Source: a virus
Reading direction: 5' to 3' (one strand)
IMG/VR virus record: IMGVR_UViG_3300033146_000850
Coordinates: 32,001 to 96,000 of that record
DNA length: 64,000 nt
Shown here: positions 2 through 14,577 of the stretch, piece after piece
Position numbering within the stretch: the stretch's first letter is position 1
Layout of the letters: each line of letters begins with the position of its first letter
Position numbers and translations under genes: made by a program
The notes under the pieces: model-generated
Seen by the model: only the letters and a program-made list of their open reading frames with translations
What the model was told of the DNA's origin: nothing
Database searches by the model: none

Positions 2-1774
2 GCATTATTAGTTAGAGTTATTTTGGATGTTGGTGGAGGGTCAATGGAAGGAATAACTCCATTTGATGCTATAGAAGTTACATATTCAGACTTAACAACC
101 ATTATAGGTAATATGGCTTTAAAAATAGGAAATTATTATAAAATAACAGATTTTAGAACTGTAAATGATGCTGGATTAGGAATGGTTAATACCGCACAAA
201 TTGAAGAAATAATAGTTCAAGCTATTTCTGAAAACGTACTTGACCAACGAGCTTATTCAGCTGAGTTTATGTATGAGATTTTATATTATAATATTAATAA
301 TACTGGTGAATCTACCCACGGGGTCATTACATATAGAGAAAATTTAGAACAAAATATAAAAACAGTGTTTGACTTTCGAGGTTGTCAATTTGCTAGGGTG
401 AAATTAGACCCGTCAAGTCTTGTTAGTTGGAGTTCAGGGACAACATATACAACCTCTGATATTGTATTATATAATGATACATTGTGGAAGCCGATTCATA
501 ACACTGGAAACGTAACAACAGAGGCTCCAGGAACTAATAGATATTGGGTTAAATTATTTGAAGAGGTATCACATAATTATACTTTATTTGAAACTACAAG
601 TGGCTGGGCTAGTAGTTTAACTTTAGATGTTGGGAGTTATAAATTATTCCCAGTATTTGGGCAACCAAATATATCTGGGGAAACTTCGACTTTTAATATT
701 AATCAATTTACAAATATTACTTGTAATTCAAATAATGTTATATTTATGTCAACATCAGGGACACACGATAATATCACGGTGGAAAGATATTGTGATGGTT
801 TAACAATAGCCTCTAAGAATATTAGCAAGGCATATTTTGGGAGTGGGTCTAATAATACATCTACATCATATAGTGGATATATTTACAACGGTATTTTTAG
901 TGATGGGATTAAAAATAGCTCTATTGATAAGATAGATGGTGTTAATATTAGAAAAGCTAGAAATTCAGTATTAGGGTCAGTATTTTCATCTGACCTTGAT
1001 GATATAAATACCTGTTATCTACAAAATATAAATAGATGTCAGTTTGGAGCATTTACTAGACAATTTTATGGAGGGGATATCTCTAATACAATAGTAGGAA
1101 TTGAATCATATAACAATGAAGTTGTATATTCTAGCTACAATACATTTGGAATGCGTTTTGAAAATAATAAAATCGAGACTGTTGAATTTAGAAATAATGT
1201 TATGGGGAATTATTTTAGGAGATTTATAATTCCTGAAACGATATCCTTTTTTAGTAATACTTTTGGTAATGAGGTAGGACATCATAGTATTGATTTTATT
1301 GTTAATTCACACTGGTATAGAAATAAGTTTGGAGATATGTGTTTTAGTCATGGTGGTTCATCAATAGGTGGTATGTGCACATACGTAACGGTGGGAAGCA
1401 ATCTTTACAATTTAAATGTAGGTGGTGATTTCCAAAACTCTAGTTTTGGTTCTGGTTGTAGAGATATTAATGTTACAAATGGGATAAATGGTGTTAATAT
1501 TGGAAGTAGTTGTGGACTCTTCAATTTAGGTGGACATTTTAGTCGATGTAATATTGCAGATGGTTGTTTAAATATTACAGTGCCAAGTGGGGTAAATCTA
1601 AATATGGTTGATTTTGGTGTTGGGTCAACTAATATAGATTTCACAGGAGCAACATCATCTTCACACATTGCTCAAAGTTACAATAAAGAGATTATAACTA
1701 GGGTTGATACATCCAAAGTTCTAAGATATACCGATAACTTAAACACTTTAATTTATGATTCAATTATAGGATAA
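2..1774 (+). CDS. Fibre/virion structural protein with CBM5/12-like module and beta-helix-like repeats (5'-partial)
   Basis: The frame is open back to the window edge (ALLVRVILDVGGGS...), so the true start lies upstream. Contains a WSSGTTYTTSDIVLYNDTLWKP module and C-terminal N/G/F-rich repeats (NTFG, NKFG, SSFG, CNIA) typical of beta-solenoid fibres. Confidence 0.6.
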   Translation, partial: ALLVRVILDVGGGSMEGITPFDAIEVTYSDLTTIIGNMALKIGNYYKITDFRTVNDAGLGMVNTAQIEEIIVQAISENVLDQRAYSAEFMYEILYYNINNTGESTHGVITYRENLEQNIKTVFDFRGCQFARVKLDPSSLVSWSSGTTYTTSDIVLYNDTLWKPIHNTGNVTTEAPGTNRYWVKLFEEVSHNYTLFETTSGWASSLTLDVGSYKLFPVFGQPNISGETSTFNINQFTNITCNSNNVIFMSTSGTHDNITVERYCDGLTIASKNISKAYFGSGSNNTSTSYSGYIYNGIFSDGIKNSSIDKIDGVNIRKARNSVLGSVFSSDLDDINTCYLQNINRCQFGAFTRQFYGGDISNTIVGIESYNNEVVYSSYNTFGMRFENNKIETVEFRNNVMGNYFRRFIIPETISFFSNTFGNEVGHHSIDFIVNSHWYRNKFGDMCFSHGGSSIGGMCTYVTVGSNLYNLNVGGDFQNSSFGSGCRDINVTNGINGVNIGSSCGLFNLGGHFSRCNIADGCLNITVPSGVNLNMVDFGVGSTNIDFTGATSSSHIAQSYNKEIITRVDTSKVLRYTDNLNTLIYDSIIG

Positions 1775-1778
1775 TAAT

Positions 1779-2285
1779 ATGAAAATTAAAAATCAGATAA
1801 AACCATTACATAATTTACCACCGATACAATATCAAATATTACCTAGTATTATTAGTAGGGATTCAATACCTAATAGTGTTAGACATCTAGGTATGATTTG
1901 TTATGTAATCAGTGAAAATACAACTTATAGATTAGTTGGGGGGTTGACCAACTCTGATTGGGAGGAAGTTAAAACAGGTGGTGGAGGATATACTACTACA
2001 TTTGTTGATTCTGATTTGACAAGTGGATATATTGTATTTGAACATAATCTAAATGCGGAGAATAGTGTATGTAATGTTACTATTAGAAATAATATAAATA
2101 GACATATTATACCGGATGATATTATAGAGGTTGATTCTAACCATATAAGGGTTGATTTATCTATGATGCAACCCTTAATTGGTGAGTGGGCTGTTATAAT
2201 TAACTGTGTTGAATATGATGATATAGTAGTTAATAAAGAGCGATTAATAAATAGTTTTATAATAAATGATAATAATTTAGGTTAA
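1779..2285 (+). CDS. Small virion structural/fibre-associated protein
   Basis: RDSIPNSVRHLGMICYVISENTTYRLVGGLTNSDWEEV and HNLN-type motifs seen in phage fibre proteins; lies in the fibre cluster. Confidence 0.55.
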   Translation: MKIKNQIKPLHNLPPIQYQILPSIISRDSIPNSVRHLGMICYVISENTTYRLVGGLTNSDWEEVKTGGGGYTTTFVDSDLTSGYIVFEHNLNAENSVCNVTIRNNINRHIIPDDIIEVDSNHIRVDLSMMQPLIGEWAVIINCVEYDDIVVNKERLINSFIINDNNLG

Positions 2286-2297
2286 GGAGAATTTAAT

Positions 2298-3848
2298 ATG
2301 TCTATTGTTTTACAAAATAAATCAAAATCGAGGTTAGCTGTTGATATCAATAGTTCGGCAATGTCTTTGACCGTTGATAGTGGAACAGGTGATAATTTTG
2401 CAACTTGTGATTCGGAATCACATATGTGGATTACTATAATTGACCAGACAACATATGGTGGTGAGTCTGAAATACTAGAAATTGTAAAAGTTTCACCTAG
2501 AAGTGGAGACACTTTTACAATAGTTGAACGTGGTGCAGAGGGAACCACTGCTAGAGCCTTTGTTATTGGGGACATTGTAGAGCAAAGAATTACAGCACAA
2601 ACATTATTTGATTTGGGTGTATCAACAAATAAAAATCGAAAGTATGTAGATGAAATATATATTACTTTGAAACGACATGAGGAATTTTCAAATTCATTTG
2701 AAATGGAAAGATTTAATGATAAATATGCACCTCAACTAATTAGTAATTGGGATTCATATTGGGGTTCACGTTTAAAAGTTCAAGTTGAGGATATTACCAC
2801 ACACGTGATATATGATAATTTGAGTTTTGACACCACTGATGATATGTATAATTGGGGTTCGGCACATTGTACTCTTGATGCATTGTCTACATATAATGAG
2901 ACATTGATTGCTAGACCTTACGAGGTTATTGATTCATCTATTCCAACACCTAGTAAAATATATGGATTGAATAGATTTTATTCCTCCATCAAAGGTAGAA
3001 AAAATTATAATAATAATTTGATATGCACTGCTAATAATTCAAATCTGTTATCCGCTTGTACTACTATTTTTAATTCAGTATGGGGTACTAGTTTAACTGA
3101 TATGGATATGGATATTCATAGCATATGGTTAGGCAGACCTAAAAAAAATAAATATTCTAACCCACCATTTTTAAAAGATGGTCAATATGTTGTAAATTTT
3201 GATACGGCTAATGCCCCAACAAGACGTGAATATAATATTAATGATGGTGTTTTTTATGATAACTCGTTTGACCAATATAGTAATGTTAGTAGCACCGTTA
3301 GATATGCTTTTATTGAAACTGGTAATTATAATGTTAATATTACTGGGGTTGATGAATGGACTAGTATCAATTCTAGTATCAAGGATAGTGGTTCATCATA
3401 TATAATAGCTTGTGGTGTTCAAAATAATAATGCAAATGAACGAAAAGCAGTTGTGATTAAACCATTAGGAATAGACCAGGTTGTAATGATGATGCCAGAC
3501 TTTGAAATATATGATTTTGAGATTGTATTTTATAATAATGATATGCAAAATCATATATATGTAAAATCTTTTACCGATGATACAGATTTTATAGATACAT
3601 TTATTGATATTGACGGTGGTAAAATGTTAATGAATAGCTCCGAGTGGTTATCTGTAGATATTAATAGTCAGACTTATGTTTCACATAATTCTACTGGATA
3701 TAATGATTTACCTTGGTCAACTGTTAGGTTTAGGTTGAGGAATAAAATTACTAAAGAAATTTCAGAATTAAGTGAATCAGGTATAGTAACGGAGAAAAAA
3801 CATAACCTAAAACAATTACAAATGAAAATAAAATCTTTTAATTCCTAA
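2298..3848 (+). CDS. Fibre-like protein A: tail-fibre N-terminal module plus unknown ~400-aa domain (paralog of 8080-9483)
   Basis: RBS AAGGAG. The N-terminus (SLTVDSGTG...EIVKV..RSGDTFTIVERGAEGTTARAF...EQRITA) matches a common phage tail-fibre attachment module. The C-terminal domain shares KIYGxN..S.IKG, KP(L/V)GxD and FYNxD motifs with 8080-9483. Confidence 0.65.
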   Translation: MSIVLQNKSKSRLAVDINSSAMSLTVDSGTGDNFATCDSESHMWITIIDQTTYGGESEILEIVKVSPRSGDTFTIVERGAEGTTARAFVIGDIVEQRITAQTLFDLGVSTNKNRKYVDEIYITLKRHEEFSNSFEMERFNDKYAPQLISNWDSYWGSRLKVQVEDITTHVIYDNLSFDTTDDMYNWGSAHCTLDALSTYNETLIARPYEVIDSSIPTPSKIYGLNRFYSSIKGRKNYNNNLICTANNSNLLSACTTIFNSVWGTSLTDMDMDIHSIWLGRPKKNKYSNPPFLKDGQYVVNFDTANAPTRREYNINDGVFYDNSFDQYSNVSSTVRYAFIETGNYNVNITGVDEWTSINSSIKDSGSSYIIACGVQNNNANERKAVVIKPLGIDQVVMMMPDFEIYDFEIVFYNNDMQNHIYVKSFTDDTDFIDTFIDIDGGKMLMNSSEWLSVDINSQTYVSHNSTGYNDLPWSTVRFRLRNKITKEISELSESGIVTEKKHNLKQLQMKIKSFNS

Positions 3849-3856
3849 ATTAAAAT

Positions 3857-3864
3857 AATAAATA
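3857..3864 (+). promoter_or_regulatory. Putative T4-late-type promoter (AATAAATA) for the repeat RNA
   Basis: ATAAATA ends 4 nt before the closing stem that starts at 3869; the same motif precedes many structural genes. Chance matches are likely in such AT-rich DNA. Confidence 0.45.
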
Positions 3865-3868
3865 TAAT

Positions 3869-3999
3869 AAAATAATGAATGGGAATGTTTAAAATACCCT
3901 TGTTCAGTAAAGAGGTCCGATTAAAATCCCTTTGTTCAGTAAGGTGGTCCGTTTAAAATCCCCTTGTTCAGTAAGGTGTTATTTTCCATTCATTATTTT
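3869..3999 (+). ncRNA. Putative structured ncRNA 1: three 32-nt repeats closed by a long stem (three-way junction)
   Basis: Repeats start at 3889, 3921 and 3953 (TTAAAATMCCYTTGTTCAGTAARGWG...). A perfect 14-bp inverted repeat 3869-3882/3986-3999 encloses them. Inter-repeat helices show an A-U to G-C compensatory change, and G-U pairs favour the + strand. The 32-nt period is not codon-compatible. Confidence 0.7.
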
Positions 4000-4014
4000 T
4001 CTTTAAATATAAAT

Positions 4015-4022
4015 CATAAATA
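4015..4022 (+). promoter_or_regulatory. Putative late promoter CATAAATA for the 4054 gene
   Basis: T4 late-promoter-like octamer ~30 nt upstream of the ATG, downstream of the repeat element. Confidence 0.5.
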
Positions 4023-4053
4023 TAATTAAAAGATATAAAACTTAGAGGGTATT

Positions 4054-6603
4054 ATGGGTAAACATTCTAGTGTTGATATTTATAAAAGTAATAATTCATT
4101 TGCACCTGAATCCGATTTTATAAGGATTAAAGGTGGTAGAGATAATAAAATATATTTCATTTTGGATAATGGGGATGAATATTTCATAAGTAGTCCGTGG
4201 GAGTTACCTGTGATATCTCAAACGGTAATTGACCCGTCAACGATAACCCCTGTAATAAATGACAAATATATAATACCTATAAACGCAACAGGCGATTGGG
4301 TAGGTCAGGATTCAAATATTGCTAATTGGAATGGTACTGTTTGGGAATTTATCACACCCGAAAAAAGTTGGGTGACGTATATTCAAGATACTAATTTATT
4401 AGCTGGATTTGATGGTAATGAATGGAAATTAATGTCCGTTCCAACTGATGAGATGACATTAGAGGTTTTGAATGATGAGATTACAATATTAGGTATTGAT
4501 ACTATTATAAACAGTAACGGTGTGAGTTTAGACCCCTCACACACACCAATGTCAAACCCAGATGCCGAATTAGTGACAAGAGGTTTTGTTGATTCTATCT
4601 CTACATCTGTTGATTATGCAACTATTGATTTAATACCAGCATTACCTAAAATGGGTGTTTGTAATTCAGAGAGAGATTTATATCATGAGGCTTGGAACCC
4701 TAAAATATTCACTAATATGACTGGGGTTGGTATGCACGATGACCCATTAAACGGTGTTGTATATATTCCTAAAAATATGACTACTTTATTGTATTGCTAT
4801 ACCTCTCCACCATCTCCTGTGCCAGCGGTTGATAATACACCAATATTAGACCCTGGAACATATCGGTTATATTCAAATATAGATTTAGTTCCATATGGTT
4901 TGAATATGACCGAGAATGTGTTATATTCAGGAGCAAGAAGTATAAATTTCACATCTAGATTTGAACAAGGAAGATGGCTACACGAGGCAGTTGTACCGTG
5001 GTCTGATTTTAGACTAAGTAGAGTATTAGTTAATACAGGACATCCAATGTTCTTTTATCAATTAATTTTATACGATGGATACCCTGGGACAAATACTGAT
5101 ATAACTATTACTGGAATTGATAGGATAATTAATGCTGATAAATGGAGTGTTGATGGGTTTATAACTAAAGCTATTCCTGAAAATGCCAATAATGAACTTG
5201 CTACTAGAAAATATATCGACAATACTAAAAACAATCCTGACAATATAACATTAGAGGTTAATACTGATAATAATATAATATGTTCTAATGAAAATGATAT
5301 ACAACTTGTATTAAATGATGCTTATGGACACAATATAGCCACTCACGGGTATCATTGGGTAACAACTACACCTGGGGTACCTACTCTTACAAATGGCACC
5401 TTAGAACTAAATTTACCAGATGATGGAAGTGGATTTTGTCAAGCATATCAGGGACAGGTGTTTATTGGTGATTCTAATAATGCTGGTATAAACGAGGAAA
5501 CTTGGAATGCATATGTTCATACAAATATGGATGTTAGAATTGATGGTATAAATTTTTGGTTATATACTAATAATTATGAGTTGGAGGTTGATGAAGTAAT
5601 TGAACTTAGTGATGGTAGTTTTTTACTTAGGTCAATGGTTCCAAAAGGAGAGTATAAGGAAATACTTGGATGTTGGGCAAGAATTGAAAGTAGCACCGTT
5701 AATATTACTAATCAACCGTGGTATCGTTTTGTTGATTGTAACCACTACCCTCCAAAGCAAATTATAAAGGTTAAAGAAATTGACCTTATAATTGACGATG
5801 ACGATGAATCGATTGATGGTTCAGATACACCAATGTCAGATGCTCATCATGAGCTTGTCACTAGAGCAAAAGTCGAAAGTCTTGTAAATAATAATACACA
5901 CTGGAACAAATCTGGCACAGAATTAAATCCGTCTGATGCTTTAGTGGATGTAATAAATCTGGAAATGACCCAGAATGGGTATACACAGATAAAAATTCGT
6001 AATAATAATGACACTGGAAATGGAGCAGGAGCTTTATTGGAGCTGAAAGGTTCTGGAGCAGATTATACAAATAATGCTTACTTCGGAATTTATAGTCCAG
6101 CCTTCTGGCTTTCACAATTAGCTGGAAAAGCCGTATTAATGTCAGATAGAGATGTTGTAATTGGAACAGTTGACTCAACAGGAGATATTAACTTTCTTAT
6201 TGGAAATTCTTACAGCTCACCAGTTGTAGTTGGACATCTAAATCAAGACGGATTCCATTTAGATGCACTTCAAACAACATCTGTGCATCCAGCAAGCTAT
6301 TATAACCTTTTTGTTGATGCAAGTACTGGTTTAATATATGCCAGTAACACAGGAGCAACTGGTAATACTCCAGCCACGGAAACTTTCACAATAGATGCTA
6401 CTATTGTTACAAATGGATATATAGACCTTTCAAACGCACCTAATCCAGACAATCATAATAGTGTTAACTGGAATGGTACGATATTATTTGAAGGAGCTAC
6501 CGAAGATTATACAATTACAGGAAATAGAGTGACTTTTCATACTAGTAATGGTGGAGTAGAACTCATTACTGGAATGAAAATACAAATTAAATATAAATAT
6601 TAG
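4054..6603 (+). CDS. Fibre/decoration protein with DUF2793-like domain and three internal repeats
   Basis: DUF2793-like segment (DKYIIPINATGDWVGQDSNIANWNGTVWEFITP). Three IDxII...EL(V/A)TR repeats separate modules. C-terminal beta-rich domain (NG...DYTITGNRVTF...IKY). Confidence 0.6.
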   Translation: MGKHSSVDIYKSNNSFAPESDFIRIKGGRDNKIYFILDNGDEYFISSPWELPVISQTVIDPSTITPVINDKYIIPINATGDWVGQDSNIANWNGTVWEFITPEKSWVTYIQDTNLLAGFDGNEWKLMSVPTDEMTLEVLNDEITILGIDTIINSNGVSLDPSHTPMSNPDAELVTRGFVDSISTSVDYATIDLIPALPKMGVCNSERDLYHEAWNPKIFTNMTGVGMHDDPLNGVVYIPKNMTTLLYCYTSPPSPVPAVDNTPILDPGTYRLYSNIDLVPYGLNMTENVLYSGARSINFTSRFEQGRWLHEAVVPWSDFRLSRVLVNTGHPMFFYQLILYDGYPGTNTDITITGIDRIINADKWSVDGFITKAIPENANNELATRKYIDNTKNNPDNITLEVNTDNNIICSNENDIQLVLNDAYGHNIATHGYHWVTTTPGVPTLTNGTLELNLPDDGSGFCQAYQGQVFIGDSNNAGINEETWNAYVHTNMDVRIDGINFWLYTNNYELEVDEVIELSDGSFLLRSMVPKGEYKEILGCWARIESSTVNITNQPWYRFVDCNHYPPKQIIKVKEIDLIIDDDDESIDGSDTPMSDAHHELVTRAKVESLVNNNTHWNKSGTELNPSDALVDVINLEMTQNGYTQIKIRNNNDTGNGAGALLELKGSGADYTNNAYFGIYSPAFWLSQLAGKAVLMSDRDVVIGTVDSTGDINFLIGNSYSSPVVVGHLNQDGFHLDALQTTSVHPASYYNLFVDASTGLIYASNTGATGNTPATETFTIDATIVTNGYIDLSNAPNPDNHNSVNWNGTILFEGATEDYTITGNRVTFHTSNGGVELITGMKIQIKYKY

Positions 6604-6606
6604 AGG

Positions 6607-6840
6607 TTGTTAGTTATTATGATTATTGATACAGATGAGCGAGAAATTAAAATTAAAGATTTGAGTTTAGCAGCATTTATAAGGATGAAAAATAATATAC
6701 TTATAGATGTTAGGGATGGTTTTTTTATATTCCATTCTAAATTAACAGAGCGAGAGTGGAAAATAGAATTTTTAAAAAGTGAGAGTAGTAAGTTTGATAG
6801 GGAGGTTAGAGATTTAAGATGGTGTATAAAAAATAATTAA
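6607..6840 (+). CDS. Small hypothetical protein, DUF5659-like
   Basis: IKDLSLAAFIRMK...FFIF motif; true start probably the ATG at 6619. Confidence 0.45.
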   Translation: MLVIMIIDTDEREIKIKDLSLAAFIRMKNNILIDVRDGFFIFHSKLTEREWKIEFLKSESSKFDREVRDLRWCIKNN

Positions 6841-6851
6841 AGGAGGTCAAA

Positions 6852-8024
6852 ATGGCTTTATTAAGAGGTTCTTCACAAATTTTAGATTTAAGTATCCCGA
6901 TTGGTAAACTAGAATCTGATTTTTTAAATGGTGTAAATTGGGACATTACAGACGGAAACAACAATGCTACTATTACAGGGCTACAAGCAGGAACTAGTGC
7001 TAATGATGCTGTGAATTATCAACAGCTTATGGATTTAATTAACGGTCAGAGAGTCAGAGAAGTAAGAGTTTTCGCAACATCTAACGTTACTCTAAATGGT
7101 GCACACACGGAAGACGGCATAGCACTTAATACTGGAGACAGAATTGCGTGTTTTAATCAGACTACTTCTACCGAGGACGGTATTTATGTCGTTGACACAA
7201 CAGGAGCTTGGGCAAGAGCTACTAATTTTGATACTAATTTTGAAGCAAGAAGTTGTAAAATTCTTGTTTCAGAAGGAACTGCAAGGGAAAACACTCAATG
7301 GTTTATTACTAATGACAAAGGAAACGATGTTGTAGGAACAGCTGATTTAGTAGCTGTACAAACTGGTAGTTCAGGAATGATGACTGCTGATAATGGTTTA
7401 ACAATGACTGGAAGCAATATTCAGTTAGGTGGAGCATTAAATCAGAATACTACCATCACGACTGCGACTAATTCCTTTACTTTTTCTGGTACAGGGGTAG
7501 GCGGTACTTTTAATGTTCATGCAAATGATGCTGTAACCATTTGGGGAAACCAGGCTCAAATTATATTCAACAATCATTTAGATTTAGATGCCAATTTGAC
7601 TATCCGTTTTAATGACGATGAAATTAAATCATCATCAGTTCTGAGTGCAATTCCATTTTCAATGACAGCAACGACTGATTATGGTAATGGTAATGGTACA
7701 TCAGCAGGAGATGTTATTGACCAATTCAGAGCCGATTTTACAGATGATGCTATTGTTAATGCTTTAGTTGAGCTTAAAGCTATAGTTGATAATCCAGAAG
7801 TGATAATAGAGGAAAGTATTACTGTAGCCAACGGAACATCAATCACTCTTACAAATGGAACTACTACATCTGTAATTAAAGATGTATTTCTTAATGGTAA
7901 TAGACTTGTTCCAACAACCGAATTTACAGTCGGAGATAATGGAACATACAGAACAATCACAGAAGTAATCGCAAATCAGGATTTTACAGATGGCGATGTT
8001 GTTACAGTTAAGTATGTAGCTTAA
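6852..8024 (+). CDS. Fibre/head-decoration structural protein
   Basis: RBS AAGGAGG. DAVNYQQL followed by VRVFATSNVTLNG..DGIALNTGDRI...NQT...DGIYVV..GAWARATNFD, a widespread phage fibre domain. Confidence 0.65.
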   Translation: MALLRGSSQILDLSIPIGKLESDFLNGVNWDITDGNNNATITGLQAGTSANDAVNYQQLMDLINGQRVREVRVFATSNVTLNGAHTEDGIALNTGDRIACFNQTTSTEDGIYVVDTTGAWARATNFDTNFEARSCKILVSEGTARENTQWFITNDKGNDVVGTADLVAVQTGSSGMMTADNGLTMTGSNIQLGGALNQNTTITTATNSFTFSGTGVGGTFNVHANDAVTIWGNQAQIIFNNHLDLDANLTIRFNDDEIKSSSVLSAIPFSMTATTDYGNGNGTSAGDVIDQFRADFTDDAIVNALVELKAIVDNPEVIIEESITVANGTSITLTNGTTTSVIKDVFLNGNRLVPTTEFTVGDNGTYRTITEVIANQDFTDGDVVTVKYVA

Positions 8025-8038
8025 TGTTTAATAGGTTT

Positions 8039-8064
8039 AGCTCCTACCTAAAAGGAGCTTTTTT
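8039..8064 (+). terminator. Rho-independent terminator
   Basis: AGCTCCT-acctaaa-AGGAGCT followed by a T run, just after the 6852-8024 stop. Confidence 0.8.
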
Positions 8065-8079
8065 ATATAGGAGGATATA

Positions 8080-9483
8080 GTGGGACAAATAAGAAATTCA
8101 CAAATTATAAATAATGACCTAACAGGGGCTAGTATCAATAGAAACTTTAGGTTTTTTGATGAAAGAGAAATACCTATCAGTGCAGGTGAAATTAGATTTT
8201 GGCAAGGTGTGTTCTGGAGGGTTATATCAGATATAACTATAACTGAAACTGGAGGCTCAATTCCTAAAGAGGGTGATATGACATATTCCCCTGATTCTCA
8301 ACCTATTTATTGGCAAAAAATACCTAATTATGGGGTTGATAGGATTGTTTTTGAAAGTATGGATATACCTGGATATAATATAACAACTAACATCTTGAAT
8401 GGTGATTGTATTCAACCAATGGCTAGTAGAATGCATAATAATTGGGAAGTATATGGTGAAAATTTATTATTTGATGTTACTGATGAAGGTGGTAATTCGT
8501 GGTATGGTTTAACTTTTCCAACTATTACAGATTATATCACGTGGCATAATAGTCAAACATTTATATCTATGGTTCACGTTGAAATATATGGGTTGTTAAA
8601 TAGTAAAAAAAATAATTATCATAAGATTTATGGTAGAAATGAGGGTTTATCTATAATTAAGGGGTGTGATATTAACGGTAGAAGTAATTATCATAAAAAT
8701 ATATGTTTATTTCAATCGAATTGGGATGAAAGAAGCACATTTGCAATGGATATATTAAATAGATTAACAGGAACAACACCATCCAGTTCGACCGATGCCC
8801 AAAGATGCATACATTCACCAGGAAATCAATCAATTTATACATTATACCAAACACTAAACACACCTAATACTATACATTTTAATGGTGGATTAAATTCAAA
8901 TAAAAGATGTTATAATCCATCAACTTTAGGGTTTAACTCTATTAATTCGGGGGATGTTTTTCTACCAATGCTTGGTGGTAATGGATTTTATGCTATTACA
9001 CAAAATACAGGTGGGTGGTCATTTATAGGTGTTCAAAATCTTGTTGATAATAGATATATTGACAGTGTAAGTCTTGTTAAAGTATATGGATTTCAAAGAA
9101 ATGACGGTTGTGTTATTGCTATAGTTAAACCAGTAGGTCAAGATTCATGGAGAATATCTTGGAAAGAACCTGTAAATAATAAAAAAATAATAATAGGATT
9201 TTATAATAGGGATGATAAAATGATATTAAAAGATGTTACATCTTTAGTTGATTCGTTTTCCAATGGTGGAACATCATTTTTAATACCTAAAAGTGTATTG
9301 AGTGCTGGTAATAAATCATCAACTAATTATAATTTATCAAAAATGACCGTTAGGAATATGGAAATTTTTATATCTGATGGTGATGGATTTATTTCAAAAG
9401 TACCACATTCTATAGATTGGATATTGAAAGCAAATGGTGCAAAGGCATATTTATTACTCAATAATAATCATTCATATAATTAA
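8080..9483 (+). CDS. Fibre-like protein B: N-terminal docking/CBM-like module plus unknown ~380-aa domain (paralog of 2298-3848)
   Basis: RBS GGAGG and GTG start. N-terminus GQIRNSQI resembles ALLRGSSQI of 6852; CBM-like GEIRFWQGVFWRV...YWQKI. C-terminal motifs are collinear with 2298-3848. Confidence 0.6.
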   Translation: MGQIRNSQIINNDLTGASINRNFRFFDEREIPISAGEIRFWQGVFWRVISDITITETGGSIPKEGDMTYSPDSQPIYWQKIPNYGVDRIVFESMDIPGYNITTNILNGDCIQPMASRMHNNWEVYGENLLFDVTDEGGNSWYGLTFPTITDYITWHNSQTFISMVHVEIYGLLNSKKNNYHKIYGRNEGLSIIKGCDINGRSNYHKNICLFQSNWDERSTFAMDILNRLTGTTPSSSTDAQRCIHSPGNQSIYTLYQTLNTPNTIHFNGGLNSNKRCYNPSTLGFNSINSGDVFLPMLGGNGFYAITQNTGGWSFIGVQNLVDNRYIDSVSLVKVYGFQRNDGCVIAIVKPVGQDSWRISWKEPVNNKKIIIGFYNRDDKMILKDVTSLVDSFSNGGTSFLIPKSVLSAGNKSSTNYNLSKMTVRNMEIFISDGDGFISKVPHSIDWILKANGAKAYLLLNNNHSYN

Positions 9484-9486
9484 AAA

Positions 9487-9494
9487 CATAAATA
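9487..9494 (+). promoter_or_regulatory. Putative late promoter CATAAATA for repeat RNA 2
   Basis: Lies 3 nt after the stop of 8080-9483 and 6 nt before the first repeat. Confidence 0.5.
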
Positions 9495-9496
9495 AT

Positions 9497-9600
9497 ATTG
9501 ATTAGGGTTGTAATACTAAGATACCCTAACTATAAAGGTATGATACTAAAAAACCTTAACTAAAAGGATTTAATACTAAAAAATCCTAACTAATTTTTAT
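9497..9600 (+). ncRNA. Putative structured ncRNA 2: three 30-nt hairpin repeats with conserved ATACTAA loop
   Basis: Exact 30-nt period (9501, 9531, 9561). The stems differ but each pairs perfectly (TTAGGGT/ACCCTAA, AAGGT/ACCTT, AGGATTT/AAATCCT), with invariant ATACTAA and TAAC. U-rich tail. Confidence 0.7.
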
Positions 9601-9627
9601 TTAAATATTAAAAGGGGGTGACCACAT

Positions 9628-11658
9628 ATGATAACGTATAAACTTTGGAGTGAGGTTGACGCTGTAACATCAGGTGATATTGTAGTATATGGTAATGAAT
9701 TATGGGAGGCTACTTCTAATATTTCACCTGCTTATTATGGAGATAAAAGTAATACTCCAACATTCAGTCCAAATTGGAAAAAATCAAATAATACTCAATA
9801 TATTAATGTAAAATATATTAATCATTTTATAGAAGTTAAAATTGACACATCTGTTGATGATGTTACATTCATATTACCTGACCCATCTCTTAATAATAGA
9901 AAAGATATACACGTAGCTTTAAATACATCTGGCAATACATTGACAATTGAGACAAATACACCAACTGTCAAGATTAATAATAGTATAACTAGTATGGATT
10001 TTAATGTATCCGCTGATAGTATAGTACTTCATCCATCTAGTGATATAAATTATCAAATACGCTCGGAGGTTGCCGATAAACCACCTTTAGTTTTTTGTTG
10101 TAGACCAGGGTCAACGCAATCTTTTACAACTACATTAACCAATATTAATTATGATACAATATTATTAGATAAAGGTTCATTTGCTCATCTATCATCTGGG
10201 GAAATATATTTCGATATAGGTGGTATTTATAATATATCTGTATCATATGGTGGAAGAGTTACAAATAATAGTAGAACAGAGGTTAATGGATATTTACAAA
10301 TAAATAAAGGTAGTGGTTTTGTAAATGTTCCTGATTTACAACTTAATGCGTATCATAGACATATTAGTCAAGGTGCTGATGGTGACAGTCAAACAATATC
10401 ATTAGAAATAGAAGCTGGTGATATTATTCGTGTTCAAGTTGTTGGTGATGGTGGTTCTATTGAGACTATCCCTGCTAGTTGTACTATAAATATCACGGTA
10501 TCTAAAGGGTTGCGAGGTGAAAAAGGGGAAAAAGGTGAGCAAGGTTTTGATGGAGCAGATGGTGACATTACCTGGGAAGGTGGTTGGACAGCTGGAACAT
10601 ATCAAGAAAATATGGCAGTTGAATATAATGGGTCATCTTTTGTTTGTATTCAAAATGGAACGAATATTAATCCTGGCACACCAGACACCCCAAATTCTGG
10701 GTGGGAATTGCTTGCAAAAAAGGGGTCTGATGGTTCAGGGGCTACCATTAACGTATCCGAAGATGGAACTATGGCTACCAATACCCCACACGGAACTCTT
10801 AATTTCAAAAAAGGAGTTATTATTAGTGATGCTGGCGGAGGCGTTGCTGATATAAATATAGTGAATGTTCAACCTTATATTGGTAATAATGATGATGTTT
10901 TATTATTTATAAATGTAACTGGGGATATTTTTATCGCTGGGGATAATTTTGATAATAATATGTCTGTTGATTTAGGAAGTGATGTTACTGTAAATTATAT
11001 TGAGGCGTTGACACCAAATAATTTAAAAATTAACTATACTACAAGTTCAAGCATTCAATCCGCTGTTAATATTGAATTTACAAGAAACGGTATTCCATCA
11101 TTTGGTCACACTATTACTTGTACGGTCACTGATGTTATAATTGGAAATGGTGTTGCTGGAACGTGGGTTGAAAATTTCAACACATCATCCTGGAGTACAC
11201 CAAGATGGAATGTTGTAGAAGGTAGTAGTTTAACTAATTTTTTCCATACAGGAGTATCTACACCATCAGGTAATACTGGAGCAACTAGTGCATATGATGG
11301 TAATTTCTTATACGGTGAGAGGTCTAACCCTAATAATGGAGTTGGTAGCTCATACAATGCATATGCAGAAACTTCTGATTTTCATGATTTGACACAAGTT
11401 AGCTTTATGCTTCATAAATGGTCAAGTACACCATCAAATATGGGTGACCTAGTAATATATTCACAAAATTCTAATAACACGTGGACGGAAAGATGGAGAC
11501 ATACTGGAAATGAACAGACAGCACAAGGTGACGCTTTTGTTCAAATTACTCTTAATGCAATTCCCTGGGATTGTAAAGGAATTAGAATAATGTTCGAGGC
11601 GGTTTCTAGTTATATGTCTGATATTTGTATCGATGATGTCGAAATTATTTCAATTTAA
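9628..11658 (+). CDS. Collagen-containing multi-domain fibre protein (CBM-like, C1q-like, GXY, MAM-like C-terminus)
   Basis: GLRGEKGEKGEQGFDGADG collagen triplets; two WxxxTY/GDIV.Y.G-type modules; C-terminal TPSGNTGATSAYDGNFLYGE...SDICIDDV resembles a MAM domain. Confidence 0.65.
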   Translation: MITYKLWSEVDAVTSGDIVVYGNELWEATSNISPAYYGDKSNTPTFSPNWKKSNNTQYINVKYINHFIEVKIDTSVDDVTFILPDPSLNNRKDIHVALNTSGNTLTIETNTPTVKINNSITSMDFNVSADSIVLHPSSDINYQIRSEVADKPPLVFCCRPGSTQSFTTTLTNINYDTILLDKGSFAHLSSGEIYFDIGGIYNISVSYGGRVTNNSRTEVNGYLQINKGSGFVNVPDLQLNAYHRHISQGADGDSQTISLEIEAGDIIRVQVVGDGGSIETIPASCTINITVSKGLRGEKGEKGEQGFDGADGDITWEGGWTAGTYQENMAVEYNGSSFVCIQNGTNINPGTPDTPNSGWELLAKKGSDGSGATINVSEDGTMATNTPHGTLNFKKGVIISDAGGGVADINIVNVQPYIGNNDDVLLFINVTGDIFIAGDNFDNNMSVDLGSDVTVNYIEALTPNNLKINYTTSSSIQSAVNIEFTRNGIPSFGHTITCTVTDVIIGNGVAGTWVENFNTSSWSTPRWNVVEGSSLTNFFHTGVSTPSGNTGATSAYDGNFLYGERSNPNNGVGSSYNAYAETSDFHDLTQVSFMLHKWSSTPSNMGDLVIYSQNSNNTWTERWRHTGNEQTAQGDAFVQITLNAIPWDCKGIRIMFEAVSSYMSDICIDDVEIISI

Positions 11659-11660
11659 AC

Positions 11661-11689
11661 TTGACAAATCATAAATTATAATGTAATAT
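11661..11689 (+). promoter_or_regulatory. Sigma70-type (early) promoter
   Basis: TTGACA-17 nt-TAATAT upstream of the radical SAM gene. Confidence 0.6.
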
Positions 11690-11722
11690 GTTTTTGTTGT
11701 TATTTATTTTAGAGGTTTAATT

Positions 11723-12706
11723 ATGAAGTTAGAAAATATTGGATTCTATAGTTTATATGATGAACGTGTTAAAAATGTTAGTCCAAAATCTCAAATGAAA
11801 AGATGTGAAATGATTATTACTGAATATTGTAATTTCAAATGTCCATATTGTAGAGGTTTGGATAATGGGATATATGGTGATAGGAAAAAGAAAGAATTAT
11901 CTTTTGATGAAATTAAAAGAAATATTGATTTGTGGTGTTTAAATGAACCTCTTGAAAATATTAGATTTTCAGGTGGTGAGCCAACTTTACATTCAGACAT
12001 AGTCAACATTGTTAAATATGCTAAATCTAAAAAAATTAAAAGAATAGCAATATCAACTAATGGGTCTAATAACATTGATTTATATAAAGAACTTATTGAT
12101 GCTGGTGTTAATGATTTTTCTATATCTTTGGATGCTAATTGTTCATCAGATGGCGATATGCTGGCTGGTTACATTGAGGGTTCTTGGAATATAGTTGTTG
12201 AAAATATTAAAATATTATCAAAATTGACATATGTAACGGTTGGTGTGGTGTTATCACCTGATAATATATCCAACACTGTATCAACCATTAATTTTGCACA
12301 CGACTTAGGAGTTGATGATATTAGAATTATATCATCCGCACAATGGAATAAACCTATTCCTGGATTAAAAAAGGTTAGTAAAGAGGTTCGGGATGCTCAT
12401 CCAATCTTAAATTATAGAATAGAACATTTTGCAAATGGTAGAAATGTTAGAGGAATAAAAGCAACTGATTCTAATAAATGTTCATTGGTTTTAGATGATA
12501 GTGTTATTGCTGGTGATTATCATTTTCCTTGTGTAATATATATGAGAGAGAAGGGTGCTCCTATTGGTAAAATAAATACTAATATGAGAAATGATAGAGT
12601 TAAATGGTTTGAAACCCATAACACTTATTTAGATGATATTTGTAGAAATAATTGTTTAGACGTTTGTATAGACTATAATAACAAATATAATTGTTATAAA
12701 CATTAA
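11723..12706 (+). CDS. Radical SAM enzyme with Cys-rich (SPASM/twitch-like) C-terminus
   Basis: CNFKCPYC (CxxxCxxC), FSGGEPTL and ISTNG motifs; C-terminal C...FPC...CRNNCLDVC. Confidence 0.9.
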   Translation: MKLENIGFYSLYDERVKNVSPKSQMKRCEMIITEYCNFKCPYCRGLDNGIYGDRKKKELSFDEIKRNIDLWCLNEPLENIRFSGGEPTLHSDIVNIVKYAKSKKIKRIAISTNGSNNIDLYKELIDAGVNDFSISLDANCSSDGDMLAGYIEGSWNIVVENIKILSKLTYVTVGVVLSPDNISNTVSTINFAHDLGVDDIRIISSAQWNKPIPGLKKVSKEVRDAHPILNYRIEHFANGRNVRGIKATDSNKCSLVLDDSVIAGDYHFPCVIYMREKGAPIGKINTNMRNDRVKWFETHNTYLDDICRNNCLDVCIDYNNKYNCYKH

Positions 12707-13174
12707 TTAATCAGTGATAATAATATCACATAGAGAATCCATTGTTTTTTGATTTATAGTTTCAGGAAAATTTTCAATTTTTATCTTGTAAATATCAATA
12801 TCAACCTCTTCTTCCATAAAATTAGAATACTCTGTCGATTCCTGTTCATATTTTTCAATTACATTTTTATATCTTTCTTTTAATTCTTCAAAATCAGAGT
12901 TTAATTGTTCCATATCTTTAATTTTAGGGGTTTGGGTTTGCACATTCTCCCAATCAATACTCCCATCTTCATTTTTAACTGCATTTTTAACAAGCATTTC
13001 AACTCTTTCTTTTTCATAAGCCTCATCTATTTTTGGTTTATGCTCTTCAACCATTTTAAGCTCTTCTAGTATTATCTTCTTATTTCTAGATATTGCATAT
13101 GCAAATTTCACTGGATACACACCTGTTAATCCATTAAGTGTCGAATAAATGTTAGCTAAATCATTTCTGTTCAT
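12707..13174 (-). CDS. Hypothetical helical protein
   Basis: 155-aa ORF with GAGG RBS; coiled-coil-like. Confidence 0.6.
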   Translation of the reverse strand: MNRNDLANIYSTLNGLTGVYPVKFAYAISRNKKIILEELKMVEEHKPKIDEAYEKERVEMLVKNAVKNEDGSIDWENVQTQTPKIKDMEQLNSDFEELKERYKNVIEKYEQESTEYSNFMEEEVDIDIYKIKIENFPETINQKTMDSLCDIIITD

Positions 13175-13191: not shown

Positions 13192-14577
13192 TTATAATTG
13201 TTTAACTGCTAAGTCCGCAAGTTCAGACCGTTCACCTTTTTCCAATACTATATGTCCTGTTAATGGGGAATTCTTCAATCTATCCATTGTATAAATTAAT
13301 CCATTATTTTCTTTTGTTAAATATGGATTATCTATTTGATATGGGTCACCGGTTAAAATTATTTTTGTACCCTCCCCAGCTCTTGAAATAATAGTTTTAA
13401 TTTCAAACGCATTTAAATTTTGTGATTCATCTATAATTATAAATTGATTGGGTATGCTTCTACCTCTAATATATGTTAAAGCCTCTACTTGTAAAAATTC
13501 ACTTTCTAACAGCTCGGATACATTTTTAAAATCATATTTTCCAACCCCTGATAAATAATTATTGTTTTCAACCAATATATATTCAAGATTATCAATAATT
13601 GGTTGTGTCCAAGGTGTTAATTTTTCTTCAATAGTACCTGGTAAATATCCTATATCATTACCCATTGGAAAAATTGGTCTAGCCACTGTTAATTTATTAT
13701 ATTTACCATCTTCAATAACCTCTCTTATTCCTGATGCGATTGCCAATAATGTTTTACCAGTACCAGCGGCACCTATTAAACTGACTAATTGGATTGAAGG
13801 GTTTAATAACATATCTACAGCAATAGTTTGTTCTATATTTCTAGCATTAATACCAGCAACTTTATTTTTTTTACCTTTATATTCTTTTATTCTAACAAAA
13901 GTAGGTTGTTGATTTTTAGGTTCTGAGTATCTAACAATAACCTGATTTTGATTATCCCCTTTATTTTTAAATAGAAAATATTCATTGGGATATTTATCCT
14001 CAAGGTCTTCGATTCTATCGATATCAACGTATCCATTATTATAAATTTCAGAAATAATATCTCCATTTACTAACAATGTTCTAAATCCTTTAGATAAATT
14101 AGAAAAATTAACAGAATCTGTAGTATACGTTTCAGTATTCAATCCCATTATATCCCCTTTTATCCTAACATTAACATCCCTACTCACAAGAGTGACATTA
14201 TTTGTGCTATTATTTTCATCATCTCTTATTTTGCAAGCTGTAGCTAGTATTATGTTATCATTTATAGATAAATCTAATTCATAACACATTAATTGTTTAG
14301 TCTTAAATTGTACGATTTGTATAATACCACCATTCTCGGTTGCCACACCATCTATAAGACTACCTTTTGTTCTTAATTTATCAATTTCTCTGGAAAAGTT
14401 TCGTGCGGAATACCCTAATTGACCTGTATCTTTTTTAAATTTGTCAATTTCTTCAATTACAACCATTGGAATAATGACAATATTGTCTTGAAAATTCAAT
14501 AAAGCCTTTGGTTCCGATAGAATCACGTTTGTGTCTAAGATAAATATTTTCTTATCCATATTACCACCTAAAATCAA
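13192..14577 (-). CDS. phoH: PIN-PhoH family protein (PhoH2/YlaK-like)
   Basis: N-terminal PIN (ILDTNVIL...EEIDKFK...NDNIIL...SRDVNVRIK) plus PhoH ATPase (GAAGTGKT, GYLPG, IRGRS, DESQN, GDPYQID). Likely start at MDKK. Confidence 0.93.
   Translation of the reverse strand: MILGGNMDKKIFILDTNVILSEPKALLNFQDNIVIIPMVVIEEIDKFKKDTGQLGYSARNFSREIDKLRTKGSLIDGVATENGGIIQIVQFKTKQLMCYELDLSINDNIILATACKIRDDENNSTNNVTLVSRDVNVRIKGDIMGLNTETYTTDSVNFSNLSKGFRTLLVNGDIISEIYNNGYVDIDRIEDLEDKYPNEYFLFKNKGDNQNQVIVRYSEPKNQQPTFVRIKEYKGKKNKVAGINARNIEQTIAVDMLLNPSIQLVSLIGAAGTGKTLLAIASGIREVIEDGKYNKLTVARPIFPMGNDIGYLPGTIEEKLTPWTQPIIDNLEYILVENNNYLSGVGKYDFKNVSELLESEFLQVEALTYIRGRSIPNQFIIIDESQNLNAFEIKTIISRAGEGTKIILTGDPYQIDNPYLTKENNGLIYTMDRLKNSPLTGHIVLEKGERSELADLAVKQL

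What the first reader, a model, noticed from the sequence alone, without database searches (positions are those of the whole stretch)
9497..9600. Element 2: three 30-nt hairpins with covarying stems displaying an invariant AUACUAA loop
The units are attagggttgtaatactaagataccctaac, tataaaggtatgatactaaaaaaccttaac and taaaaggatttaatactaaaaaatcctaac. Stem sequences change together (GGG/CCC, AGG/CCT, GGA/TCC) while the loop motif and the UAAC linker stay fixed. This is the signature of selection on structure plus a protein-recognised loop. An alternative three-way-junction register like element 1 is also possible (9502-9509/9582-9589, 9521-9525/9537-9541, 9554-9557/9564-9567). CATAAATA lies 6 nt upstream of the first unit.
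Basis: seen in the sequence. Interest (0 to 1): 0.8.

Follow-up and report, generated by a model that had tools for sequence, protein, structure and literature searches.

The report
Conserved three-hairpin array behind phage fibre gene
Three tandem 30-base hairpin units between two tail-fibre genes of an uncultivated marine T4-like phage are real and are kept at the same spot in related phages, so they are most likely a functional RNA element of unknown role.

Summary
Three 30-nt units lie at 9501-9590, each with complementary arms, ATACTAA between the arms and a TAAC linker. CATAAATA ends 6 nt upstream.

The array alone is weak evidence. Its fold is no more stable than shuffles (z -0.33), and the three window units cannot tell separate hairpins from an interlocked fold.

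The decisive evidence is comparative. Only two relatives had readable DNA, with the upstream protein 58% and 44% identical. Both carry the same kind of array directly after the orthologous gene. The arms differ but stay complementary: 59 of 72 cells pair and 6 of 9 pairs change on both sides.

The loop is not invariant across phages (AUAYNRA). No conserved ORF exists, no Rfam family matches, and no second copy occurs in either genome.

A paralogous fibre gene (2298-3848) and its orthologues keep a different three-unit array (element 1). In one phage that array stays with the upstream gene while the downstream gene is replaced.

Best reading (0.35): a late-transcribed, plus-strand RNA element at a fibre-gene boundary, acting in cis. 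Rivals are a trans-acting decoy like a type III antitoxin, and a partner RNA of the fibre-family protein.

The scan had noted this only on this same genome, not on other DNA.

The parts
8080..9483 (+). Upstream gene (467 aa). It is a fibre-like virion protein of an unnamed family (alignment A1). The array always follows this gene.
   Evidence: ORF. No Pfam or PHROG family. Six relatives at 65-44% identity. Shares a domain of about 250 aa with 2298-3848: hhalign probability 91.9%, E 7e-7, and the A1 profile hits the paralogue's orthologues in G002 and G003.
9487..9494 (+). CATAAATA, a late-promoter-like motif that ends 6 nt before unit 1.
   Evidence: Position. ATAAATA occurs in 35 of 116 gene-upstream windows against 5.7 expected. 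It sits 25-45 nt before many structural-gene starts. The likeness to the T4 late promoter is recalled, not tested.
9501..9530 (+). Unit 1. Arms 9502-9508 and 9523-9529 (7 bp), with a 14-nt loop holding ATACTAA at 9513-9519.
   Evidence: Folds alone at -7.2 kcal/mol.
9531..9560 (+). Unit 2. Arms 9535-9539 and 9553-9557 (5 bp), with a 13-nt loop holding ATACTAA at 9543-9549.
   Evidence: Folds alone at -2.7 kcal/mol.
9561..9590 (+). Unit 3. Arms 9565-9571 and 9581-9587 (7 bp), with a 9-nt loop holding ATACTAA at 9573-9579.
   Evidence: Folds alone at -5.3 kcal/mol.
9594..9602 (+). T-rich run (TTTTTATTT) that starts 6 nt after the last arm of unit 3. It could at best be a weak stop signal.
   Evidence: Seen in sequence. 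The terminator scan lists no site in 9484-9627.
9612..9630 (+). Shine-Dalgarno-like AAGGGGGT and the ATG of the downstream gene.
9628..11658 (+). Downstream gene (676 aa), a tail-fibre-like protein with collagen-like repeats.
   Evidence: phrog_5073 tail fibre, E 1.5e-9. The orthologue in L082 (7576-9624) is 50% identical.
2298..3848 (+). Paralogous fibre gene (516 aa) that precedes element 1.
   Evidence: Its N-terminus matches the solved tail fibre 8jov, E 1.7e-18.
3869..3998 (+). Element 1: three 32-nt units (3887-3978) inside a 17-bp outer stem (3869-3885 with 3982-3998). It is the sister module of element 2.
   Evidence: TRF: period 32, 2.9 copies, 88% matches. Fold. Orthologous arrays in L097 and L098.

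Best explanation
Element 2 is a functional non-coding module that belongs to the 3' flank of a family of tail-fibre-like genes. It occurs in a small clade of uncultivated, AT-rich, marine T4-like phages.

It most likely works as RNA of the plus strand. A late promoter of the ATAAATA class lies between the stop codon and unit 1. It would start a transcript whose first 90 or so bases are the three hairpin units. In the window this transcript runs on into the next fibre gene.

Each hairpin has a lower stem of 5 pairs, a conserved U-A pair and an AU-rich loop (AUAYNRA). A linker containing CU follows each hairpin.

I infer that the array acts in cis at the boundary between the two fibre genes. It would be a structured 5' end that protects and tunes the downstream mRNA. 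It would also be a 3' barrier for RNA reading through from the upstream gene. The repeated loops would bind an unknown factor.

Shown: the repeat, the conserved position, the co-varying arms, the enrichment of the promoter-like motif, and the link to the upstream gene family.

Inferred: transcription, the start site, the strand, and any effect on stability or translation.
For: Context:
- The genome is a 126,063-bp record with 28% G+C and T4-type core genes: portal, major head protein and baseplate wedge.
- The array fills most of the 144-nt gap between two co-oriented fibre-like genes.

Conservation:
- Of the 6 protein relatives found, DNA could be fetched for 2. Both carry an array of about 30-nt hairpin units directly after the orthologous gene.
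- L082 has 3 units plus a fourth strong hairpin. L081 has 2 units before its contig ends.
- TRF run separately on G001 reports period 31 and 2.9 copies at this place.
- MAFFT aligns the three window units with the three L082 units in order.

Paired arms:
- Eight units align without gaps. One hairpin register gives 59 of 72 cells paired. Six of 9 pairs change on both sides, and 0 of 500 shuffles reach the covariation score.

Strand:
- The L082 gap folds with z -2.96 on the plus strand and -1.86 on the minus strand.
- Six G-U cells count on the plus strand against 2 on the minus strand, giving 59 against 55 paired cells.

Promoter:
- ATAAATA occurs in 35 of 116 upstream windows against 5.7 expected, and CTAAATA in 10 against 1.5.
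- In G001 the figures are 24 of 117 against 3.3, and 11 against 1.4.
- Such a motif ends 7 nt before the first paired base here and 8 nt before it in L082 (read).

Other:
- The array is not coding. All three frames carry stops, and the shared frame has a stop in the L082 loop.
- It is a single-locus element. The covariance model R1 finds only its training copies in all of G000, G001 and L081. The next best hit has E 0.51.
Against: - A stabilising 5' hairpin needs neither three units nor conserved loop and linker positions. Yet T11, A13, T14, A15, A19, A21, T27, C30 and T31 are invariant in 8 of 8 units.
- In L082 a strong hairpin (-13.8 kcal/mol) and a second CTAAATA motif separate the array from the downstream gene. 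There the array cannot be that gene's leader.
- In the sister family, the array of L098 stays with the upstream gene while the downstream gene is unrelated (E 2.6). This ties these arrays to the upstream gene.
- L081 has a sigma-70-like TTGATT-16-TATAAT in place of an ATAAATA motif.
- The window hairpins are thermodynamically weak, and the whole-gap z-score is -0.33.
- The interlocked register is almost as good, at 40 against 43 of 54 cells.
- Expected motif counts come from whole-genome k-mer frequencies and crude ORF calls. AT-rich spacers therefore inflate the enrichment.
- The comparison rests on only three lineages. Units inside one array are more alike (58-90%) than units between arrays (48-71%).
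Confidence: 0.35

Rival explanations
1. A trans-acting small decoy RNA built like a type III antitoxin (ToxI) or the phage pseudo-ToxI. A promoter drives about three tandem units. These units, whole or cut apart, bind and neutralise a host (or phage) protein such as an abortive-infection endoribonuclease. The RNA travels with the receptor-binding gene as one host-specificity cassette.
For: - The architecture matches. Type III loci are promoter, tandem repeats, terminator, gene. The toxIN family has repeats of 31-62 nt and 1.9-5.6 copies, mean 2.8 (PMC3401426 Table 2, passages read).
- This array has period 30-31 and 2.8-2.9 copies.
- A phage is known to carry and expand such repeats to escape ToxIN (PMC3475682, passages read).
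- A terminator-like hairpin follows the array in L082. Terminator-like structures also follow the sister arrays in the window and in L098.
- Loop and linker positions are conserved, and the number of units is kept.
Against: - No ToxN-family gene is in the record: PF13958 gives 0 matches at E <= 1. The record is only 56% complete.
- The neighbours are fibre genes of 467 and 676 aa.
- The window shows no terminator after the array.
- The array keeps its place across phages whose flanking protein is only 44% identical. That is unusual for counter-defence cargo.
- The host and its repeats are unknown. Pattern scans found no similar array in the viral contigs and only one unrelated match in the prokaryote genomes.
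Confidence: 0.2
2. A partner RNA of the fibre-family protein encoded just upstream. Each paralogue (8080-9483 and 2298-3848) would have its own three-site RNA. The free, probably trimeric, protein would bind it to feed back on expression at the fibre locus, or use it as a cofactor.
For: - Gene and array co-occur. Element-2 arrays were seen in 3 of 3 loci holding an A1-family gene (window, L082, L081). They were found in neither of 2 records that lack such a gene (G002, G003).
- Element-1 arrays were seen in 3 of 3 loci holding an A6-family gene (window, L097, L098).
- G001 lacks that gene, and TRF shows no second array of about 30 nt there.
- The two protein families share a domain.
- Both array types put an AU-rich motif ending in AUAC into loops (read).
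- In L098 the array stays with the upstream gene although the downstream gene is replaced.
Against: - Nothing marks the proteins as RNA-binding. A1 has no family and a poor model.
- The A6 model (pLDDT 77.7) matches solved structures only through its tail-fibre and tailspike N-terminal anchor.
- Linkage alone is equally explained by a 3' UTR or by a shared cassette.
- The count rests on five records only.
Confidence: 0.15
3. A signal read on the other strand or at the DNA level. The units would be tandem minus-strand terminators or insulators that stop antisense transcription through the late fibre genes. Alternatively they would be protein-binding or recombination sites in DNA.
For: - The terminator scan flags a minus-strand site in L082 that coincides with unit 1 (7430-7410).
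- It also flags a minus-strand site in L081, formed by the arms of the two neighbouring units (1560-1538).
- The hairpins have no G-U pairs in L081, and none in the window in their best registers. They would form on either strand there.
- Stem-loop cassettes at gene borders of T4-type phages are known to drive recombination (PeSLs; PMC2839356, passages read).
Against: - Unit 2 of L082 needs two G-U pairs and does not form on the minus strand.
- Pairing is 59 cells on the plus strand against 55 on the minus strand.
- The T runs after the minus-strand hairpins in the window are at most 4 long (read).
- All genes from 2 to 12706 lie on the plus strand.
- Recombination linkers need conserved sequence and many copies. 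Here the sequence diverges while the pairing is kept, and the element is single-copy.
Confidence: 0.1
4. A neutral tandem triplication of one ordinary hairpin, with no function of its own.
For: - Units inside one array are more alike than units between phages. This fits recent duplication or homogenisation.
- The window fold is no more stable than shuffles.
Against: - About three units are kept at the same place in phages whose flanking protein is 44% identical. The arms changed on both sides.
- The sister family keeps three-unit arrays in 3 of 3 loci.
Confidence: 0.05

Closest known systems
Type III toxin-antitoxin antitoxin arrays (ToxI, CptI, TenpI) and the phage-borne pseudo-ToxI of phage TE
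   Same: A short tandem array of RNA-coding repeats behind its own promoter, often followed by a terminator and then a gene. Repeat length and number overlap: toxIN has 31-62 nt and 1.9-5.6 copies, this array has 30-31 nt and 2.8-2.9 copies. A phage-encoded example exists (PMC3401426 and PMC3475682, passages read).
   Different: No ToxN-like gene is next to the array or anywhere in the record. The flanking genes are fibre genes. No sequence likeness to a known antitoxin was tested. The units are simple hairpins by prediction, and a pseudoknot was not examined.
PeSL cassettes (promoter-early stem-loops) of T4-type phages
   Same: A composite promoter plus stem-loop element in the spacers between variable genes of T4-like phages (PMC2839356, abstract and passages read; PMC4122927 seen only in the search listing).
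   Different: PeSLs have a sigma-70-like early promoter and one terminator stem-loop. They occur many times per genome and share sequence. Here the promoter-like motif is of the late ATAAATA class. There are three units with co-varying arms. The element occurs once per genome.
Intercistronic and 5'-terminal stabilising hairpins of bacterial mRNAs (REP/BIME clusters; ompA-type 5' stem-loops). Recalled, not looked up.
   Same: Hairpins at gene borders inside operons that protect the RNA on one side from exonucleases or from 5'-end-dependent decay. The predicted start here lies 1-3 nt before the first stem.
   Different: REP elements are dispersed in hundreds of copies. Stabilisers need no conserved loop and no fixed number of units. 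No effect on stability was tested here.
Element 1 of the same window (3869-3998) and its orthologues in L097 and L098
   Same: Three units of 32-33 nt directly behind a paralogous fibre gene, preceded by an ATAAATA-type motif. The motif is one base off before the first L097 copy. Arms vary, and AU-rich loops end in AUAC.
   Different: Model R1 does not detect it. It has a long outer stem of 12-19 bp. In L097 the pairing is between neighbouring units, so the conserved motif lies in 15-nt loops.

Membership tests
Type III antitoxin array or pseudo-ToxI mimic | Tandem direct repeats of about 31-62 nt in 1.9-5.6 copies | tested here: inconclusive
   Period 30 with 2.8 copies here and period 31 with 2.9 copies in G001. 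The copy number fits. The length is at or just under the published lower bound (PMC3401426 Table 2).
Type III antitoxin array or pseudo-ToxI mimic | Promoter before the repeats, and a terminator between the repeats and the next gene | tested here: inconclusive
   A promoter-like ATAAATA-class motif is present. The window has no terminator-like site. L082 has a strong hairpin with a short U run.
Type III antitoxin array or pseudo-ToxI mimic | Adjacent ToxN, CptN or TenpN-type toxin gene. For a phage mimic, likeness to a host antitoxin repeat instead. | tested here: not met
   PF13958 gives 0 matches in G000 at E <= 1, in a record that is 56% complete. CptN and TenpN families were not searched. 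The neighbours are fibre-like genes. Likeness to a host repeat cannot be tested because the host is unknown.
PeSL cassette of T4-type phages | Sigma-70-like early promoter joined to one terminator stem-loop | tested here: not met
   No sigma-70-like site is listed at 9440-9500 among the sites shown (31 weaker ones were not shown). The motif present is CATAAATA. Only L081 has TTGATT-16-TATAAT.
PeSL cassette of T4-type phages | Many sequence-similar copies spread through the variable regions of one genome | tested here: not met
   Model R1 finds no further copy in 262,439 bases covering G000, G001 and L081. The best non-training hit has E 0.51.
Intrinsic (Rho-independent) terminator | G+C-rich stem directly followed by a U run | tested here: not met
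   The scan lists 4 sites in 2000-13000 and none in 9484-9627. The T run starts 6 nt after the stem of unit 3.
Any described RNA family (Rfam 15) | Score at or above the family's gathering threshold | tested here: not met
   0 matches at gathering thresholds over the whole window. The best permissive hits are 13.4 bits here and 19.6 bits in L082, far below their thresholds of 46 and 50.
CRISPR mini-array or RNA anti-CRISPR (solitary repeat units) | Repeats separated by spacers, or a repeat that matches the host's CRISPR repeat | tested here: inconclusive
   The units abut with no spacer, so this is not a mini-array. A match to a host repeat cannot be tested because the host is unknown. The concept is recalled, and no paper was read.
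Small protein-coding gene | An open frame with a start signal, conserved in relatives | tested here: not met
   Stops occur in all three frames of the window units. The shared frame has TAA inside the loop in unit 1 of L082, read from alignment A5.

The most novel reading that the evidence does not exclude
Each receptor-binding-type fibre gene of this phage clade carries its own dedicated three-site RNA as one mobile cassette. There would be two paralogous gene families with two cognate array types. The RNA would be bound either by the trimeric fibre-family protein itself or by a host defence protein that it neutralises. That would be a protein-RNA module of a kind not described for tailed phages.
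Probability: 0.2. Interest if true: 0.8.

Novelty: new variant of a known kind. Interest (0 to 1): 0.5.

Why it matters
Structured RNA elements of uncultivated marine phages are poorly charted. This one matches no Rfam family, and two of my literature searches for such an element turned up no description of it.

Its strict linkage to one family of fibre genes is unusual, and so is a sister array behind the paralogue. Fibre genes are the host-range determinants.

If the array only stabilises or insulates messages, it is a tidy example of how such phages set the expression of neighbouring fibre genes. If it is a decoy or a partner RNA, host recognition and an RNA function would be inherited together as one cassette. 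That would matter for understanding host-range modules and counter-defence.

Tried and rejected
Searches for more relatives
- Single-protein scans of the viral contigs for both flanking genes found no relative.
- Profile scans found only one viral contig, G001, reached three times as L082, L083 and L091.
- The metagenome scan found one short contig, L081.
- The prokaryote genomes gave nothing. GenBank phages gave nothing for the upstream protein. For the DNA they gave only a radical-SAM hit.
- A two-unit pattern scan of the viral contigs returned 80 loci. All were low-complexity or coding repeats, none a hairpin array.
- A three-unit pattern gave 0 viral loci. It gave one genome locus, L096, whose repeat has another architecture.
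The DNA around P0002, around P0004 and P0005, and around one of P0006 or P0007 could therefore not be read. The same holds for P0009 and P0011-P0019, apart from any that L098 encodes.

Sequencing runs
- No RNA holder was listed. Two DNA runs, one labelled marine sediment and one hydrothermal vent, hold small shares of 0.07 and 0.06.
- Laid at 80% likeness, they gave only short pieces, and none usable over the array. Nothing is concluded from this.

Structure of the flanking proteins
- The upstream protein gave a poor AlphaFold model (pLDDT 53), which was not searched.
- The ESM Atlas gave only leads under 0.9 and TM scores under 0.3.
- The paralogue's model matched solved structures only at its N-terminal anchor.

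Ideas considered and dropped
- An anticodon-loop mimic: the loop sizes and the implied anticodons are inconsistent between units.
- A hammerhead-like junction: no Rfam hit.
- An integron attC-like site: no integrase, and three units instead of one.
- A replication origin with iterons: the sequence is not conserved.
- One call failed on a length limit and was resent as two calls (96, 97). One findings look-up had too many words and was resent.

Full report
WHAT IS THERE

The window is bases 32001-96000 of a single 126,063-bp virus record with 28% G+C. The record carries T4-type core genes: portal, major head protein, baseplate wedge, plus a GroEL-like and a PhoH-like gene. Its major head protein is about 40% identical to those of T4-like cyanophages.

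Positions 2-12706 hold a run of plus-strand genes. Most resemble tail fibres or other virion proteins. The finding lies in the 144-nt gap (9484-9627) between ORF 8080-9483 and ORF 9628-11658. ORF 8080-9483 (467 aa) has no Pfam or PHROG family. ORF 9628-11658 (676 aa) is tail-fibre-like.

CHECK OF THE OBSERVATION

The repeat finder gives three copies spaced 30 and 30 nt. TRF gives period 30, 2.8 copies and 81% matches. Each unit has complementary arms of 7, 5 and 7 pairs around ATACTAA. The genome holds 44 ATACTAA sites on both strands, and only these three stand in tandem. CATAAATA ends 6 nt before unit 1.

The array is weak evidence when taken alone:
- The short motifs occur at chance frequency.
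- The gap folds no better than shuffles on either strand, with z -0.33 and -0.31.
- The single hairpins are worth only -7.2, -2.7 and -5.3 kcal/mol.
- A loose definition of three hairpins in a row is met 7 times on the plus strand and 6 times on the minus strand of the genome.
- The arms of different units in one array can pair with each other almost as well as with their own partner: 40 against 43 of 54 cells.

The last point means the stems that change together inside the window do not prove three separate hairpins. RNAfold in fact prefers a mixed fold for 9500-9603.

RELATED LOCI

The upstream protein has six relatives at 65-44% identity in the large protein collection. Two loci could be read.

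L082 lies on a 134-kb viral contig, G001. The upstream protein there is 44% identical and the downstream gene is 50% identical. Its 180-nt gap holds three units of 30-32 nt. A fourth strong hairpin follows, and then a second promoter-like motif. TRF run on its own finds this array, with period 31 and 2.9 copies.

L081 is a 1580-nt metagenome contig with a 58% identical protein. It has two units of 30 nt before the contig ends.

MAFFT aligns the window's three units with L082's three units in order. The L082 gap folds with z -2.96 on the plus strand (1 of 200 shuffles as good) and -1.86 on the minus strand. The hairpins of the relatives are stronger than those of the window: -9.4, -8.5 and -8.4 kcal/mol, with z near -3.6.

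COVARIATION

The eight units align without gaps. One register has nine pairs around a 7-nt loop. It gives 59 of 72 cells paired (81.9%), against 66.5% in shuffles (0 of 500 as high) and 33-61% when the partner is slid. Six of nine pairs change on both sides. One pair (U-A, columns 11 and 21) never varies.

Invariant columns are T11, A13, T14, A15, A19, A21, T27, C30 and T31. The loop is therefore AUAYNRA rather than an invariant AUACUAA, and the linker keeps CU.

Most of the signal comes from differences between phages. Units within an array are 58-90% alike, and units between arrays are 48-71% alike. This points to homogenisation or repeated duplication, while about three units are kept.

The sample is three lineages. 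The control by shuffling ignores relatedness, so this is good but not conclusive support.

STRAND AND CODING

Six paired cells are G-U on the plus strand, and two would be G-U on the minus strand. That gives 59 against 55 paired cells. Unit 2 of L082 forms only on the plus strand.

All frames of the window units carry stops. The frame shared by the units has a stop inside the loop in L082. A peptide is therefore excluded.

PROMOTER-LIKE MOTIF

In this genome ATAAATA stands in 35 of 116 windows from -80 to -11 upstream of called genes, against 5.7 expected. CTAAATA stands in 10 against 1.5. In G001 the figures are 24 of 117 against 3.3, and 11 against 1.4. These are the top enriched 7-mers. The expectation comes from whole-genome frequencies and crude gene calls, so AT-rich spacers inflate it.

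The motif sits 25-45 nt before the starts of many structural genes. Several non-structural genes have TTGACA-type promoters instead. This fits the T4 scheme of early sigma-70-type and late TATAAATA-type promoters, which I recall. I did not test for a late sigma factor.

The motif ends 7 nt before the first paired base here and 8 nt before it in L082. L081 has TTGATT-16-TATAAT at the same place. With the T4 spacing (recalled), the RNA would start 1-3 nt before hairpin 1 in all three loci.

THE SISTER ELEMENT AND THE LINK TO THE UPSTREAM GENE

Earlier notes of this scan on the same genome proposed that 2298-3848 and 8080-9483 are paralogues, each followed by a triple repeat. I tested this.
- BLASTP is weak: E 2e-5, 30% identity over 141 aa.
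- A profile comparison gives probability 91.9% and E 7e-7 over 246 columns.
- The A1 profile hits the orthologues of 2298-3848 in two other viral records, with E 2.5e-9 and 1.4e-7.

Those orthologues are L097 (41% identical) and L098 (35% identical). Both are followed by three-unit arrays of 33 nt. L097 carries two such arrays in a row. The arrays share an 11-nt AU-rich motif with element 1 of the window. They lie inside outer stems of 12-19 bp.

The L098 gap folds with z -4.09. The L097 gap does not beat shuffles (z +2.22).

In L097 the variable 5-mers pair between neighbouring units. One T-to-C difference between the two copies turns a G-U pair into G-C. The conserved motif therefore lies in the loops.

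The downstream gene is conserved between the window and L097 (E 2e-68). It is unrelated in L098 (E 2.6). The two downstream genes within the window are also unrelated to each other.

Model R1 finds no element-2 unit in G002 or G003, where the best E is 0.94. G001 has no homologue of 2298-3848, and TRF shows no second array of about 30 nt there.

In the five records examined, each array type therefore occurs exactly where its gene family occurs. In the one informative case it follows the upstream gene.

WHAT THE PROTEINS ARE

The N-terminus of the paralogue matches a solved phage tail fibre, 8jov, with E 1.7e-18. By fold it matches tailspike anchors. The rest has no confident match. The upstream protein of element 2 could not be modelled. 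Nothing suggests RNA binding, and nothing excludes it.

INTERPRETATION

The element is real, conserved and non-coding, and it probably acts as plus-strand RNA. It is tied to a fibre-gene family and occurs once per genome. It matches no Rfam family.

My best reading is a cis-acting RNA element at the gene boundary, at 0.35. Most conserved hairpins between co-oriented phage genes are of this kind. The predicted start also puts a stem at the very 5' end.

Several facts fit that reading poorly:
- The loop and linker positions are conserved.
- Three units are kept.
- A terminator-like hairpin and a second promoter-like motif follow the array in L082.
- The sister arrays are linked to the upstream gene.

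These facts keep two bolder readings alive. One is a trans-acting decoy with the architecture of a type III antitoxin array (0.2). The other is a partner RNA of the fibre-family protein (0.15). A minus-strand or DNA-level role (0.1) and a neutral repeat (0.05) are less likely.

LIMITS

- Only three lineages per family could be read.
- There are no expression data.
- The host is unknown.
- Supplementary files of the papers were not opened, and no claim here depends on them.

Noticed in passing
window 3869-3998; L097 4558-4655 and 4708-4805; L098 4610-4708: Element 1 is conserved too. Three-unit arrays of 32-33 nt with a shared 11-nt AU-rich motif follow the orthologues of 2298-3848. L097 carries two arrays in a row. 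The arrays lie inside outer stems of 12-19 bp.
   Followed up: partly
window 8039-8059; L081 29-49: A clear terminator hairpin with a T run sits only about 20 nt before the start of 8080-9483, with no promoter-like motif between them. The orthologous place in L081 has the same arrangement, so this gene seems to depend on read-through.
   Followed up: no
G000 C1, upstream of the genes at window -31903, -31598, -31248 and 67530-67793 (minus strand): A repeat of about 70 nt holding a G+C-rich hairpin precedes three small ORFs at the left end of the record. Part of it, without the hairpin, recurs upstream of a small ORF about 99 kb along the record.
   Followed up: no
G000 C1 805-1009 and 99141-99308: Pyrimidine-rich tandem repeats of 30 nt (7.2 and 5.6 copies) occur at two distant places in inverted orientation. 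They may mark an end or an origin region.
   Followed up: no
G000 C1 12537-13186: A 45-nt tandem repeat with 14.4 copies and 75% matches. It was not checked whether it is coding.
   Followed up: no
L096 14-160, minus strand (Bacteroidales MAG contig end): At least four tandem 33-nt units, each a 6-bp hairpin followed by an ATACAAAAA-type linker. The three-unit pattern picked it up by chance. Its architecture differs from element 2.
   Followed up: partly
L082 7498-7523: A fourth hairpin of 9 bp (-13.8 kcal/mol) follows the array in G001 and is itself followed by a second CTAAATA motif. The window has no counterpart.
   Followed up: partly
window 11723-12706 and 13192-14577: A radical-SAM gene lies next to the fibre cluster. 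It is the only part of 8000-12000 with a DNA match in GenBank phages, a 735-kb uncultured phage at 74% identity. A PIN-PhoH fusion gene lies on the minus strand.
   Followed up: no
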